Origin: Glycera tridactyla
Lineage: Eukaryota
Direction of reading: 5' to 3'
Assembly: GCA_965644265.1 (NCBI GenBank)
Contig: OZ286471.1
Location: 46,438,001 to 46,502,000 of the forward strand
Length of the DNA stretch: 64,000 nt
Shown piece by piece: positions 57,101 to 64,000 of the stretch. A program made the position numbers. The first letter of the stretch is position 1; each line of letters begins with the position of its first letter.

Positions 57101-60100
57101 TTAGAGCAGCTGACAAGGTAGCCATGCTAGTACATGCTTTATTGTGATTATCCAACTTCAACATTTATTCAATCATCGTGTCGCATGTTGCATAATGATC
57201 CCCGGCCTATGGAGTCAGTGAATGCGCATTGTTTACCTTAGCCACGATCACGTGTGTTACCACAAAAATGTTAATGATAATACCATCATTGAAAATTTTG
57301 TTATCGGTGATGAAGACGACGACAATGAGATCGACGACGATGACGATGCAGAAGACGAAGATTACGGTGACAGTGATGGTGAAGATGACGGTGGCGTGGT
57401 GGAGGCGGTGACGGTGGCGGTAGCGGTGCTGGTGGCGGTGACGGTGACGGTGGTGATGATGAGGGTGATGGCGCGGGCGGTGGTGGTGGTGACGGTGACT
57501 GTGATGGTGATGGTGATAATGATGACGACGATGGTGATTCAATAAGGATTCAATGAATTTCTCTGTTGGAGATGAGAAAAATTACCTCATTTCCATCTCA
57601 GCATAGAACTAAGACACGTTAGAATGATACTATATACAAAATACACACATAATTATAGTCCATGACATAAGGGAATAGACAAAATAAGACCATAGTAACA
57701 AGTGCAGCAGGTAAATTGCGTGGATCTTTTATGCGAACATAGAATTTAGACCAAAACACATATGCGAGATAGCTGGTTAGGTGCGGGACTGCATGCGCCG
57801 AACGCCCGGTCACAATAAGCAACACACAAATAATATCCATGCTGCAGAATGCCAGTTTTGTGTGCATACCGGTGGGATGTCATTTTTTTGCAGCACGGAA
57901 CCCTCCCTGGTGAAATGACGATAGTATGGCATCCTTACCCCACCCGGGTCACCCATCTAATACGGATGTCTACCATCTACTTTGGAAGTCTTCCTCATTC
58001 TTACTTGTATCTTGATCTTCTGTTTGCAGAATGGAGCGAATAACTACGTGTTCGCAATGCGTCGTTAGATGGCTAGCTGTCTTTGGCCTTCTACTAGCCT
58101 TCTCCCACTCAGGCAATTCAGGTAAACTATCACCTTTGTTATTTCTCGCAATGATCCTCCAAACTTTATGTTATAATCCAGCGAGTCCTACAATGTGAAT
58201 CACCAACGGTTGGAACGCCTTTGTTAATTCATTTCTGTCAATTCACCTCTGTCAAACCTCCAAATTTGACGTATTCGGCAATGTGAGTTACCGACGACTT
58301 TGAATGGGCACTCAGGTCTTGGTTCTTCCATCCTGGTCGTTGTGTCGGTTATACAAGTGTAAGTGGACGTGAAAAGAAGAAGCATGTGTGTATGAGTGTC
58401 AACTTCCAATCAGTAACATTATTGAGCTCACTACAGGCCGGTTTGTCCGTTTCATCAAGGTTGGTAGGGGTATATAGACTGCAGTGAAGGAGCTCCGGTA
58501 CAAAGTTTCTACAATGCCTGTATATTTCACAATAGAGTCCGATATTGTGGTGTCCTCCAAAAGCAAATGTTCTCTGGTATTCCACCTCAGACGAAGTGAA
58601 ATACCGACAACGTGTGCCCACTGGCAGGGGCTATCTCTGGAGCCGATCTTCATGGTTTGTTCGTTCGTTTGTTTGGGTTTAACGTCTATTCAACTACCTT
58701 GGGTTATATCAGACTGAAACACTGAAAATGCTGAAGCAAAGAGGCACCACTGCCGGGGGCCGTCCCTACTCTTTGCAGAAGACAGCAGTGATTCTTTTAC
58801 GTGCATACAGGAAAAGACTCTTATACACACGGCCGGCCTTTGATATCCTATACGACATGCACTGGTTCCAAACTTTATGGATGTTAAACCACTCCATTCC
58901 AATTCCTCTAGTTTCGCATCAAGCTCGTAAAATGGCGCACGCTGCGCAGTCAGGGGACAAGGTTAATTTGATGTTTCCAGTATCCTACTCAGACATGATT
59001 TGTATCGAATCAGCTTTCTCATTTCACAACTATTGTCCACTCCCCACCCTCTAGTCCCCTGCTTTCCTGTAGACGACATGTTTCAGAAGTATGATCCACA
59101 TCTTTATTTGAAAGACACTGCATTGCGATTTGTTCAATCGACCCACATTCCTGGATGAAAGTTGGCGTGTGTATAGACCAGAAAATACGTTTATACATGA
59201 TTTATCTTCAGTTTGCTAGCAATATGCATGAGACTCGTGTAGAATTGGTTATATTTTACTTGGTGGTCCCGTCATGAGGTCTCATGAGGCGCAAATGGCT
59301 GATGTATTAGGGAACTATTTAGGATAAGTAGTGGCATCATTAGAAAGTACGTTGTTTGTTGGTCATCGACCAAAACTGAGGTGATTTGCAATTTGTATGG
59401 CTCCAATTGCGCGAAAAGTCAAAACGCAGTTGTAGTACAATAGATTTGTAGAAAGACCATGACATGAGAGGATTTTTACCTCGTCTCAACGAAGATGAGG
59501 GGAGGTATTGCGGTCACTCCGGCGTCGGCATCAGCATCGGCGTCGGCATAGACGTCCTCATCTGCGTTAAGGTCAGCTCAGCAACTAGAGGGCCTAGCTC
59601 CATATAATTAGGCAGACATATACTTCAGTACATTTACTGATGAATCCAGCGATCATCAAGGTGTCATCTCAATGTTCTTCTTGATTAATTTTGGTTTGAA
59701 ACTTGTGTTTTCTGAAATGATGGGACTCTGTCATTGGGGGCAATGTTGAAGTCATGTCAAAGTCACATTGCTCAGCAACTAGAGTGCCCAGCTCCATGAA
59801 ATATGGCATGCATATACTTCAGTACATCTACTGATGAATCCATCAAGGTAGCATCCCAGTGTTCTGCTTGATTAATTCTGGGATGAAAATTAGGTTTTTT
59901 GAAGTGATGGGAGCTATTTCTGATGATCCAATTTATTCATGTTCAGTTTGCAGTTGATTCTCCACATGTGTCTTTATCCCCTGTGATTGTATATTGCCCA
60001 TGAAAGACTGATATGTGCGTGATAGGTGATTTTGGGGCAGAAAATCCCTTTTTTGAAATGAATGAACATTTCTGGTGACCCAGCCACCCCAAACTTGATA

Positions 60101-61723: not shown

Positions 61724-64000
61724 ATAGTGGTAGTAGTACTAACTGTGCTTNNNNNNNNNNNNNNNNNNNNNNNNNNNNNNNNNNNNNNNNNNNNNNNNNN
61801 NNNNNNNNNNNNNNNNNNNNNNNNNNNNNNNNNNNNNNNNNNNNNNNNNNNNNNNNNNNNNNNNNNNNNNNNNNNNNNNNNNNNNNNNNNNNNNNNNNNN
61901 NNNNNNNNNNNNNNNNNNNNNNNNNNNNNNNNNNNNNNNNNNNNNNNNNNNNNNNNNNNAGAGTGGGAGGAAGTGGTGGTAGTAGTAGTAGTAGTAGTTG
62001 TAGGAGTAGTTGTAGTAGTAGGTGTAGTCACTAGTGACAGTAGTGATAGAGGAAGTAGCAGCAGCAGGAAAGGTTAACAAATTATTGATTTTATTATCAT
62101 CATTATTAATGTTATTATCATTATTGGTTGTTGTAATAGTGGTTGGAGTGGGGACGAGGGTGGTGATGGTGATGGTGTTGCTGTTGGTGATGTCGGTGGT
62201 GTTGGTAGTGGTAGTAGCAGCAATTGCGTGTTGAGGAATCAGGTGTATTGTGAATTGACACTATGCGTATTGTGTTCATTTTATAGAAGCTGACGATGAA
62301 TGTGACTTCCCATTTGAGTACGGTGGCCAACAGTTCGCCAGCTGCATCACTACACCCGATCGTAACGAGCCTTGGTGTCGAACCTTCGGAGGACAAATCA
62401 AGACATGCAGAAGTGAGTTGTTTTCATCACACTCTTGTTTGTTGGCGGACTATAGATCCTATTTGGGGCGTAGTTTGATAATCATCCTACGACATTCCCA
62501 TACTGCTAGTGCTAAAATAGACCTATAAGCTAGTTTTGAGCGATTTAGCTTCACATTTTGGAGATGACGGGCGAAAGCAAGGCGTAGCCCATTTTGCAAC
62601 CTGTATGGGTCCTAGGGTGGGTATATTAGCACTAGCGACATGGGCGTGTCGTAGGATAGATATCAATCTACGCCCCTAACGGGGCTAGGTTTAGTCATTC
62701 GGCTGACCAGGATTCGGGAACTCACTATCCTGCGTAGTGAATAGCATTGCACCCTTTATCATAGATGGAGAAGCTGCTTTGTCTGAAAAGAGCGGGAAAA
62801 CTCATATCACTGCCATTGGCTTCAAATAGTCCTCATATTTCCAAATTTCACGATTATTCACACCCACGGCCCTTTGAATCCCATATTATATATAACTAAT
62901 CCACATGAATCCTATTCATATACCAGCCATTTGCATTTCAGGCCTTATTTTAGGAAAGAATTTTGAATGGCTGATTTTGAAATGTCGGCAAGTGAAATTT
63001 GCCAAATTCCTAGTTATTTAGTTATTCAGACGAATCTGCGTGATAAGGCCTGGACAAGGAATAGAAGAGGAATGGAAAGAAGGAGAAGGGTCAATGTGGC
63101 TACCTATGATTGCGGCTGGCTGCGGCAGCGGTGTCGGCGGTTTTCACCCACCCTTCGACATCGTGGGAACTCCTCCGAAAACTTCTTCATGACAAATCTT
63201 CTCTTTTTTGCTTGCAGTTTTTGCGGATATGCAGGACGGGGGATGGCGCCTATGCCAGTTCCCGTTCAGCTATCACGAATCGACCTACTCCGGCTGCACG
63301 GATGAGTACACCACCGCCGGAAAACCCTGGTGTCTCACCGACAATACCGGCACCTGGGGCTACTGTGACCCATTCCGTGAGTAAAGCATTAATACATCAT
63401 GAGTTCTCTCGGATGAATCAATAAATGGTTCTAGTTTGAATTTGAATTTGAATTTGAACTTTATCTTTCCACTTTCCAGGGGCGAGGGGGGGGGGGGGCA
63501 GTAATACATTGCCCCCTCTTTGAGTACAAACAATGAAAACAAGCATACATGGCAAGACAAGTCATACAAAACATACAATGAGACAAGGTCAAGTAAGCAA
63601 GATGATAAGATGATAAGCGACTGAAAATTTAAACCATGATGCTCTATCAAATTCCAAATGGACTGTCAGAATGCGCCTTGATGGACGCCGAGTGTATCAC
63701 AATTAAGTTATTCCCTGTGCAAAATATTTCATGGTTCTTCTCTTAAATAAGCTTAGACTGTCCATTGAAATGATGATATGAATCAGTGCAAAGCGACCTG
63801 TGTCAAAATTGACCCGAGAGGCGTAGTCCAGACTATTACCACCTGGTATCGGTATTGTAGGAGCCAGGGGTATGGGTTTCTCATGTTGGGAAAGAGGACA
63901 GAATAAGTGACCCGTGATGAAATTTAGATGAAGAAATGTCAGATAATTGTCATATATCTCTCGATTAGAATAGCAGCAAGAGTCTTGGTCCATGTTTGCC

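What the first reader, a model, noticed from the sequence alone, without database searches (positions are those of the whole stretch)
57711..63376. Secreted invertebrate protein built from tandem FN2 exon modules
Seen: three GT-AG exons join in frame into a 125-aa N-terminus: signal peptide, FN2, FN2. All junctions are phase 1, and no catalytic or other domain precedes the FN2 modules. Established: FN2 modules bind collagen/gelatin (MMP-2/9, fibronectin, mannose-receptor family) or choline phospholipids (BSP/ELSPBP1 seminal proteins), are best known from vertebrates, and 1-1 symmetric exons are the classic exon-shuffling class. Inference: a possibly lineage-specific FN2-array protein acting in matrix binding, gamete interaction or defence. 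The C-terminus lies outside the window.
[Added by the scan's program, not by the reader: the finding's places include an assembly gap (unread letters, written N; its length is only estimated) at 61751 to 61959. Whether the letters on both sides are continuous or in frame is not known: test that first.]
Basis: partly seen in the sequence, partly recalled or inferred. Interest (0 to 1): 0.68.

Follow-up and report, generated by a model that had tools for sequence, protein, structure and literature searches.

The report
Secreted two-FN2-module gene, ordinary kind
This is a real-looking spliced gene for a secreted protein with two collagen/choline-binding-type FN2 modules, one per exon, but such FN2-only proteins are already described in invertebrates, so it is a new member of a known kind.

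Summary
On the + strand, exons 58031-58121, 62287-62412 and 63218-63376 have GT-AG borders, are open in frame, and every intron is phase 1. Both later exons pass Pfam fn2 above the curated cut-off: 31.7 and 37.3 bits against 22.2. They are the only FN2 matches in the window.

- A 72-nt phase 1-1 open exon candidate at 61321-61392, with the best splice sites of the model.
- A likely 5'-UTR intron, 57711-58029.
- Two ways for the protein to end inside the window: a stop at 63382-84 followed by AATAAA, or a very strong acceptor at 63480 followed by a stop at 63521-23.

The assembly gap lies inside an intron, within a tandem repeat, about 330-360 nt from the nearest exons. No reading frame crosses it. 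The link between the signal-peptide exon and the FN2 exons does span it.

No other domain was found upstream. FN2-only proteins are already reported in copepods, and FN2 domains in planarian proteins.

Verdict: a new member of a known kind, of low to moderate interest.

The parts
57711..58029 (+). Putative 5'-UTR intron. The non-coding first exon would end at 57710. A TATA-like TATATAC lies at 57631.
   Evidence: The donor CAGCAG|gtaaat at 57710|57711 is at the 99.1th percentile and is the best donor in the 1 kb upstream. The acceptor ...ctgtttgcag|A at 58029|58030 is at the 98.4th percentile. This is inference from a crude recalled matrix; no transcript data.
58030..58121 (+). First coding exon. 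ATG at 58031, 30 codons plus 1 nt, signal-peptide-like (P0001).
   Evidence: An in-frame stop lies 18 nt upstream of the ATG. The donor is at the 98.0th percentile. It is the only signal-peptide-like phase-1 first-exon candidate within 16 kb upstream of exon 2.
61321..61392 (+). 72 nt, phase 1-1, open, three Cys and one N-x-T site (P0004).
   Evidence: The acceptor is at the 99.15th percentile and the donor AAG|gtaggt at the 99.8th. It is the only + strand phase 1-1 open candidate of 45-300 nt in the whole window with both sites in the top 2%. GC is 0.50 against 0.40-0.42 in the flanking intron. No Pfam match.
61751..61959 (.). Assembly gap (209 N) inside the intron 61393-62286, within a (GTA)n / ~87-nt tandem array.
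   Evidence: It was not filled or looked up.
62287..62412 (+). FN2 module 1 exon. 126 nt, phase 1-1 (P0002). Four Cys. The C3-C4 loop is shortened to 9 residues and the usual W-G-aromatic before C4 is absent.
   Evidence: Pfam fn2 31.7 bits, profile positions 1-29 of 42. PDB phmmer best hits are MMP-9 at 2.2e-7 and PDC-109 at 4.5e-6. The acceptor at 62286|62287 is the only phase-compatible AG inside the open frame before C1 (read).
63218..63376 (+). FN2 module 2 exon. 159 nt, phase 1-1 (P0003). Full consensus, with a 4-residue deletion in the C3-C4 loop.
   Evidence: Pfam fn2 37.3 bits, profile positions 1-42 of 42. PDB phmmer best hit is MMP-9 at 5e-14, and the alignment shows the 4-residue gap. 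The acceptor is at the 99.6th percentile.
63377..63479 (+). Either a 103-nt intron (gtgagt...ccag) or read-through sequence. If unspliced, the frame stops at 63382-63384 after two more codons, and AATAAA lies at 63420-63425.
   Evidence: The acceptor at 63479|63480 is at the 99.81th percentile of 3649 AG sites.
63480..63523 (+). Candidate short last coding piece: 2 nt plus 13 codons, then a stop at 63521-63523. It contains a 13-G run at 63486-63498.
   Evidence: After the G run all three frames reach a stop within 1, 7 or 11 codons, so an error in the run length would not open the frame.

Best explanation
This is a spliced protein-coding gene on the + strand for a small secreted protein. In order it has:
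- a probable non-coding first exon;
- a signal-peptide exon (58030-58121);
- probably a 24-codon cysteine-containing spacer exon (61321-61392);
- two tandem FN2 modules, each on its own phase 1-1 exon (62287-62412 and 63218-63376).

I think it most likely ends just after the second module, inside the window. It would do so either by splicing to 63480 (13 more codons) or by read-through to the stop at 63382-84. That gives a precursor of about 150-165 residues.

Its work would be binding rather than catalysis. Each disulfide-locked FN2 module offers an aromatic pocket (the Tyr of F-P-F-x-Y, the Trp of W-C and, in module 2, the Trp before the last Cys). In known FN2 proteins this pocket holds collagen/gelatin side chains or a choline head group. 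Two modules in tandem give bivalent attachment to an extracellular matrix or a surface.

Shown: exon borders, phases, open frames and FN2 family membership. Inferred: secretion, use of the extra exon, the C-terminal end, and the ligand.
For: - Exon structure and phases.
- Both modules are above the Pfam fn2 cut-off. Their nearest solved relatives are all FN2 modules: MMP-9, MMP-2, fibronectin, factor XII and PDC-109.
- The nearest ESM Atlas clusters are all fn2, at scores 0.91-0.89.
- The four coding exons have GC 0.50-0.59, against 0.40-0.44 in the introns.
- Exon 1 is the only signal-peptide-like first exon nearby.
- The extra exon is the only top-2% phase 1-1 candidate on the + strand.
- In-window ends: the acceptor at 63480 is at the 99.81th percentile, 103 nt after the gtgagt donor, with stops in all frames after it. 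Alternatively, the stop at 63382-84 is followed 36 nt later by the only AATAAA/ATTAAA between 63201 and the window end.
- No other domain was found upstream or on the opposite strand.
- The PDC-109 choline pocket uses W47, W58, Y30 and Y54 (PMC2823774, passages). The Y30 and W47 columns are conserved in both modules.
Against: - There are no transcript data, and every junction is inferred.
- The splice scores come from a crude matrix with recalled frequencies. By it the exon 2 acceptor (83.9th percentile) and exon 3 donor (92nd) are unremarkable.
- A consensus gtgagt donor in phase 1 directly after module 2 is what an internal module exon of a longer mosaic protein would carry.
- The tail after 63480 is low-complexity and holds a 13-G run.
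- No AATAAA/ATTAAA follows the 63521 stop within the window.
- With the extra exon, the mature protein would have an odd number of cysteines (3+4+4).
- Module 1 matches only the first 29 of 42 profile positions and lacks the second pocket Trp.
- The structure models are of low confidence (pLDDT 62.4 and 60.6), and no Foldseek match reaches E 0.001: 0 of 222 and 0 of 170.
- The signal-peptide exon and the FN2 exons lie on opposite sides of an assembly gap.
Confidence: 0.5

Rival explanations
1. The four exons are only the N-terminus of a larger mosaic extracellular protein whose remaining exons lie beyond the window. Possible continuations are FN2 plus a trypsin-like protease (as in copepods and in factor XII/HGFA-type proteins), more FN2 modules, or lectin or mucin-type domains.
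For: - Module 2 ends with a phase-1 gtgagt donor, as an internal shuffled module would.
- Ciona fibronectin and a Ciona gel-forming mucin carry FN2 (PMC5006582; PMC6109156, figure legend).
- Only 624 nt of sequence follow exon 3.
Against: - The strongest acceptor after exon 3 lies only 103 nt downstream and leads to a stop in every frame.
- The same preprint says the louse FN2 genes carry the domain 'mostly alone'.
- Nothing can be seen beyond 64000.
Confidence: 0.38
2. The scaffold is misjoined at the gap. The signal-peptide exon and the 72-nt exon would then belong to another locus, and the two FN2 exons would be internal exons of a gene whose true 5' part is elsewhere.
For: The gap at 61751-61959 separates the two pairs of exons. 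Its length is only an estimate.
Against: - Both flanks carry the same tandem unit, in register.
- All four exons share strand and phase.
- The left-hand exons have no other partner domain exon in the window.
Confidence: 0.07
3. This is a non-functional relic or unexpressed gene fragment. The FN2 exons would be decaying copies and the flanking 'exons' chance open frames.
For: There is no expression evidence. The surroundings are repeat-rich and gene-poor. Module 1 is truncated relative to the profile.
Against: - There are 0 stops in all four exon frames and all GT-AG sites are intact.
- All eight module cysteines and the aromatic core are kept, although the two modules are only 32-34% identical, which indicates long-maintained constraint.
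- Exon GC is raised over intron GC.
Confidence: 0.05

Closest known systems
Copepod FNII-domain proteins (salmon louse LsFNII1-3 and the wider 74-gene set)
   Same: An invertebrate set of genes in which FN2 is mostly the only recognised domain, often in several copies. LsFNII1-3 are expressed in exocrine tegumental glands. Function is unknown (passages read).
   Different: The organism of this window is unknown.
Mammalian binder-of-sperm proteins (BSP / PDC-109)
   Same: A small secreted protein with an N-terminal extension followed by two tandem FN2 modules. PDC-109 is the second-best solved match of module 1, at E 4.5e-6. The Y30 and W47 pocket columns are kept.
   Different: - There is no specific sequence affinity. 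MMP-9 ranks first for both modules, and PDC-109 ranks only 14th for module 2.
- The C3-C4 loops are shorter.
- Module 1 lacks the second pocket Trp.
- The C-terminal end is unproven.
FN2 triplet of gelatinases MMP-2 / MMP-9
   Same: These are the closest solved sequences (5e-14 for MMP-9; 2.2e-7). They have the same Cys and aromatic consensus. One module per phase 1-1 exon is recalled, not checked.
   Different: In the gelatinases the FN2 modules are inserted in a metalloprotease catalytic domain. Here no other domain, including Peptidase_M10, was found among the ORFs scanned upstream, and a signal peptide comes directly before.
Factor XII / HGFA-type and mannose-receptor-type N-termini
   Same: A signal peptide is followed early by FN2. 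Factor XII FnII is the top Foldseek row for module 2, and mannose-receptor and uPARAP chains are also listed.
   Different: Those proteins have one FN2. The mannose-receptor family has a Cys-rich ricin-type domain before it. Here there are two FN2 modules and no preceding domain. The downstream EGF/kringle/protease or lectin domains cannot be tested.
Planarian VAL proteins with FN2
   Same: Invertebrate extracellular proteins that carry a canonical-size FN2 (PMC3435950, passages).
   Different: There the FN2 follows an SCP/TAPS domain. No such domain was found here.

Membership tests
FN2 domain (Pfam PF00040) | Score above the curated Pfam cut-off (22.2 bits) | tested here: met
   Module 1 scores 31.7 bits and module 2 scores 37.3 bits. 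The exon 3 ORF scores 36.7 bits again.
FN2 domain (Pfam PF00040) | Four cysteines in the module order, with the aromatic core C-x-F-P-F-x-Y ... W-C | tested here: met
   Both modules meet this. The invariant columns between them are C, F, P, F, Y, C, P, W, C, T, G and C.
FN2 domain (Pfam PF00040) | Full-length match, including the C-terminal W-G-aromatic-C segment | tested here: inconclusive
   Module 2 matches profile positions 1-42 of 42 and has W-G-Y-C, but with a 4-residue loop deletion. Module 1 matches positions 1-29 of 42 only, has no Trp before C4, and has a C3-C4 spacing of 9.
FN2 domain (Pfam PF00040) | FN2 fold (two short antiparallel sheets, disulfides 1-3 and 2-4) | tested here: inconclusive
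   The single-sequence AlphaFold2 models have pLDDT 62.4 and 60.6 and contain short strands. The top Foldseek rows are FN2 modules, but with E 0.34-0.39 and TM 0.38-0.47, and none reaches E 0.001. Foldseek also uses sequence, so this is not independent evidence.
FN2 domain (Pfam PF00040) | One module per exon with phase 1-1 borders (criterion recalled from the exon-shuffling literature; my search found 0 papers) | tested here: met
   The exons are 126 and 159 nt, and both start and end in phase 1.
BSP / PDC-109 family | A short protein that ends just after the second of two tandem FN2 modules | tested here: inconclusive
   Two in-window stops are possible, but the splice choice is unknown.
BSP / PDC-109 family | Specific sequence affinity to BSP modules over other FN2 modules | tested here: not met
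   MMP-9 ranks first for both modules. PDC-109 ranks 2nd for module 1 and 14th for module 2.
BSP / PDC-109 family | Choline pocket residues (equivalents of W47, W58, Y30, Y54; PMC2823774) | tested here: inconclusive
   The Y30 and W47 columns are kept in both modules. By position before C4 (my inference), the W58 equivalent is present in module 2 only. The Y54 loop position falls in the shortened loop in both modules.
Gelatinase (MMP-2/-9) | FN2 modules inserted in a Peptidase_M10 catalytic domain | tested here: not met
   No family other than fn2 appears among the reported matches for the ORFs scanned: 210 of 70 aa or more on both strands, and 208 + strand ORFs of 33-69 aa from 36000. A signal-peptide exon precedes instead. 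Exons shorter than 33 codons would be missed.
Mannose receptor family | Cys-rich ricin-type domain, one FN2, then C-type lectin domains | tested here: not met
   No ricin-type or lectin match appears in the same scans. There are two FN2 modules rather than one. Downstream lectin domains are not testable.
Copepod FNII-only proteins | FN2 is the only recognised domain of a gland-expressed or secreted protein; orthology | not testable with these tools
   The architecture so far is compatible.

The most novel reading that the evidence does not exclude
The gene is complete within the window and encodes a ~150-165-residue secreted protein made of a short Cys-bearing spacer and two abbreviated FN2 modules (C3-C4 loops of 9 and 10 residues, against 14 in the MMP-9 module aligned). 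That would be an independently evolved invertebrate counterpart of the mammalian BSP/PDC-109 architecture, built from a 'mini-FN2' variant whose pocket differs from the collagen- and choline-binding types. Its odd cysteine could make covalent dimers.
Probability: 0.3. Interest if true: 0.35.

Novelty: new member of a known kind. Interest (0 to 1): 0.22.

Why it matters
FN2 was long regarded as a vertebrate module. The passages read show it is now known from planarians and, in large numbers, from copepods, with no function assigned.

One more secreted FN2-only gene adds a data point on how widely such proteins occur. It also offers a small, easily expressed protein in which to ask what invertebrate FN2 pockets bind. 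It does not open a new question by itself.

For annotation, the practical gains are:
- a corrected gene model, with an extra 72-nt exon and a 5'-UTR intron;
- the possibility that the protein ends inside the window;
- the caveat that the model spans an assembly gap.

Tried and rejected
- **Structure:** single-sequence AlphaFold2 models of both modules were of low confidence (pLDDT 62.4 and 60.6). Foldseek against the PDB ranked FN2 modules first, but 0 of 222 and 0 of 170 matches reached E 0.001. I do not use this as evidence for the fold.
- **Organism:** Rfam gave 0 matches and there are 0 tRNA genes. The ESM Atlas rows name only FN2 clusters, with a few chordate-labelled members, and say nothing on taxon. 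'Invertebrate' therefore stays untested. Nothing suggests a human contig; identity to human FN2 modules is 42% or lower in the Foldseek alignments.
- **Other genes:** Pfam on 210 ORFs of 70 aa or more (12 of 222 were dropped for low entropy), on 208 + strand ORFs of 33-69 aa from 36000 (of 471 window-wide), and on 124 - strand ORFs of 33-69 aa from 46000. Nothing beyond fn2 was credible. Cementoin at 3.3e-8 falls on a tandem repeat; the rest were E 0.00018-0.0093 among hundreds of queries.
- **Paralogous copies:** tblastn of the exon peptides against the window gave only self hits in the part of the output shown, which was cut after the rows for exons 1 and 2.
- **The 300-aa ORF at 53646-54545 (-):** no Pfam match and no PDB match.
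- **Literature:**
  - One search was badly framed and gave nothing on FN2.
  - (exon shuffling, 1-1, kringle) found 0 papers.
  - Ozhogina 2001 (PMC2374232) is not held, so its content is known only through citing passages.
  - PMC12549020 had no FN2 passage in the main text.
- **Not run:**
  - The joined spliced product was not assembled, translated or searched; all searches were exon by exon.
  - The bacterial/archaeal genome scan and complex prediction were not used, because they do not bear on the question.
  - Supplement S11 of the louse genome preprint, which lists other invertebrate groups with FN2, could not be seen.

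
Full report
**1. What is in the sequence**

- Exon 1: ATG at 58031, running to 58121, followed by gtaaac.
- Exon 2: 62287-62412, between ...tttatag and gtgagt.
- Exon 3: 63218-63376, between ...gcttgcag and gtgagt.

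Their lengths are 91, 126 and 159 nt, so every intron is phase 1. Each exon is free of stops in its own frame.

I translated and searched the exons one at a time. The joined product was not assembled, translated or searched. The frame continuity therefore rests on the arithmetic of the phases.

**2. The assembly gap, tested first**

- The 209 N at 61751-61959 lie in an intron, roughly 360 nt after the nearest upstream exon edge (61392) and 330 nt before exon 2.
- The gap sits in a (GTA)n-rich tandem array. 61679-61750 is a 99% copy of 61592-61663.
- The right flank resumes with the motif that follows that unit in the preceding copy. The simplest reading is an unresolved number of repeat units.
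- No reading frame crosses the gap.
- Three things cannot be known here: the true length, whether a small exon hides in it, and whether the scaffold join is right.
- The last point matters, because the signal-peptide exon is on one side and both FN2 exons are on the other.

**3. Is it more than chance?**

- Exon 2's peptide scores 31.7 bits on Pfam fn2 (E 1.6e-7). Exon 3's scores 37.3 bits (E 2.7e-9). The curated cut-off is 22.2 bits.
- The window holds 2150 six-frame ORFs of 20 aa or more, so both E-values survive correction.
- A full FN2 regular expression hits only these two places.
- An HMM built from the two modules finds nothing else; the next best has E 0.26.
- Among solved structures the nearest sequences are all FN2 modules. 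For module 2 these are MMP-9 (5e-14), MMP-2, fibronectin and factor XII. For module 1 they are MMP-9 (2.2e-7) and PDC-109 (4.5e-6).
- The nearest ESM Atlas clusters are FN2 clusters at 0.91-0.89, although the recognition values (1889 and 1945) are below the tool's 2300 mark.
- The two modules are 32-34% identical to each other. They are an old pair, not a recent duplication.

**4. How the modules differ from the textbook FN2**

- Module 2 has the whole consensus but a 4-residue deletion in the loop between the third and fourth cysteines. It has 10 residues there, against 14 in the aligned MMP-9 module.
- Module 1 matches only profile positions 1-29 of 42. It has 9 residues in that loop and no Trp before the last Cys.
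- Single-sequence AlphaFold2 models were of low confidence (pLDDT 62.4 and 60.6).
- Foldseek ranked FN2 modules first, but with E 0.34-0.39 and TM 0.38-0.47. The fold test is therefore inconclusive and adds nothing independent.

**5. The gene model, revised**

I scored splice sites with a crude matrix. Its frequencies I recalled and did not take from a tool. Sites were ranked against all 4101 GT and 3649 AG sites of the + strand.

| Exon | Acceptor percentile | Donor percentile |
|---|---|---|
| Exon 1 | not scored | 98.0 |
| Exon 2 | 83.9 | 99.0 |
| Exon 3 | 99.6 | 92.0 |
| Candidate exon 61321-61392 | 99.15 | 99.8 |

- It spans 61321-61392: 72 nt, phase 1-1, open, three Cys and one N-x-T site (P0004).
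- Requiring both sites in the top 2%, it is the only phase 1-1 open candidate of 45-300 nt on the + strand of the whole window. One unrelated candidate exists on the - strand.
- The three original exons do not pass that strict filter, which shows how crude the matrix is.
- Because exon 1 and this exon end in the same base, the junction codon is the same whether it is included or skipped. It could therefore be a cassette exon.

There is probably also a 5'-UTR intron.
- Just before the ATG lies an acceptor-like site at 58029|58030 (98.4th percentile).
- The best donor in the kilobase upstream is at 57710|57711 (99.1th percentile). That is exactly the finding's start coordinate.

Further support for the model:
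- Exon GC is 0.50-0.59, against 0.40-0.44 in the introns.
- Exon 1 is signal-peptide-like: a charged start, an 11-residue hydrophobic core and small residues near the end.
- Of 1117 ATG..GT phase-1 candidates on the + strand, 6 rows at 3 places pass my filters. Exon 1 is the only one within 16 kb upstream of exon 2.
- No SignalP run was possible.

**6. The C-terminus**

That is not established. There are three options.
- **(a) Read-through.** If the donor after exon 3 is not used, the frame stops two codons later at 63382-84. The only AATAAA/ATTAAA between 63201 and the window end follows at 63420.
- **(b) Splice to 63480.** 103 nt after the donor is an acceptor at the 99.81th percentile (63479|63480). 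In phase 1 it gives 13 more codons and a stop at 63521-23. The piece holds a 13-G run, but all three frames stop within 1, 7 or 11 codons after the run. A miscounted homopolymer would therefore not open the frame.
- **(c) Skip to an exon beyond 64000.**

My estimates are about 0.55 for an in-window end, (a) plus (b), and about 0.4 for (c).

**7. Surroundings**

- The window is repeat-rich and gene-poor.
- Pfam on 210 ORFs of 70 aa or more on both strands (12 of 222 were dropped for low entropy) gave fn2 and a few isolated matches. The strongest, Cementoin at 3.3e-8, falls on a tandem repeat.
- 208 + strand ORFs of 33-69 aa from 36000 gave fn2 and four weak matches.
- 124 - strand ORFs from 46000 gave one weak match.
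- None of the matched families is a metalloprotease, ricin-type, lectin, kringle, EGF or trypsin domain. Exons shorter than 33 codons would be missed.
- tblastn of the exon peptides found no second copy in the part of the output shown, which was cut after the rows for exons 1 and 2.
- No RNA genes were found.
- The organism could not be named, so the label 'invertebrate' is untested.
- Nothing points to a human contig.

**8. How it most likely works**

Shown: a set of intact, phase-compatible exons encoding a hydrophobic leader and two FN2 modules.

Inferred: the product is secreted, the modules are disulfide-locked, and each offers the family's aromatic pocket.

- In PDC-109 the choline head group sits on W47/W58 and is held by Y30/Y54 (PMC2823774, passages).
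- The Y30 and W47 columns are conserved in both modules here.
- The second Trp is present in module 2 only. This rests on my positional inference.
- The loop Tyr falls in the shortened loop in both modules.

I therefore expect a bivalent extracellular binder of a matrix or surface ligand. Collagen/gelatin-like is my first guess and a choline-type ligand my second. The altered loop leaves room for a different ligand.

With the 72-nt exon the mature protein has an odd number of cysteines. This would allow covalent dimers, or it argues for further cysteines downstream.

**9. Comparison with what is known**

- Older literature held FN2 to be vertebrate-specific, with kringles as the invertebrate ancestor. 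This is stated in PMC3435950 (passages); the original paper was not held.
- A 2007 survey lists fn2 under the label 'Deu' in a table of domains found in deuterostome-specific combinations (PMC2394772, table passage).
- Planarian VAL proteins carry FN2.
- The salmon-louse genome preprint reports 192 FN2 copies in 74 genes, 'mostly alone' but regularly with trypsin. [quoted passage not shown]
- LsFNII1-3 are expressed in exocrine tegumental glands, with function unknown (PMC7201535, passages).
- Ciona fibronectin and a Ciona mucin also carry FN2.

The present gene works like these proteins and is a clear member of the FN2 domain family. It is not a gelatinase or a mannose-receptor type as far as the window shows. 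Its likeness to the BSP architecture is one of layout, not of specific sequence affinity.

**10. Verdict**

- The kind of protein is already described, so this is a new member of a known kind, with interest of about 0.2.
- The boldest reading still open is a complete, BSP-like, two-module 'mini-FN2' secreted protein that evolved independently (probability about 0.3).
- Transcript data would settle both the junctions and the C-terminus.

Noticed in passing
window 55211-56168: A tandem array of a 74-nt unit, 12.9 copies at 93% matches, about 2 kb upstream of the FN2 gene.
   Followed up: no
window 16935-17948: A minisatellite that stays open in several frames (ORFs up to 338 aa). It produces a spurious Pfam Cementoin match at E 3.3e-8.
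   Followed up: partly
window 53646-54545 (- strand): A 300-codon stop-free frame, long for this composition, with no Pfam match and no PDB match. Unexplained; possibly a decayed mobile-element gene.
   Followed up: partly
window 11132-11473 (- strand): An ORF with a motif that I recall (from no call) seeing at the ends of retrotransposon-like repeats of many aquatic animals. No Pfam match.
   Followed up: partly
window 20606-20867: A second assembly gap of 262 N.
   Followed up: no
window 62462-62519 and 62622-62679: An inverted repeat with 58-nt arms, 81% complementary and 102 nt apart, inside the intron between the two FN2 exons. It looks like a small foldback/MITE-type insertion.
   Followed up: no
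window 59576-59912 and 60082-60488: Intron 1 holds two sets of direct repeats: pairs of 72-73 nt spaced 187-194 nt apart, and a 111-nt unit present three times with a 147-149 nt period. This suggests a composite repeat element.
   Followed up: no
window 63486-63498: A 13-G homopolymer directly after the strong acceptor-like site at 63480. Its length may be unreliable in the assembly.
   Followed up: yes
window 57199-57581: GGTGAC/GGTGAT-type short tandem repeats just upstream of the putative first exon, open in several frames. A related repeat recurs at 62141-62218 in the intron before exon 2.
   Followed up: no
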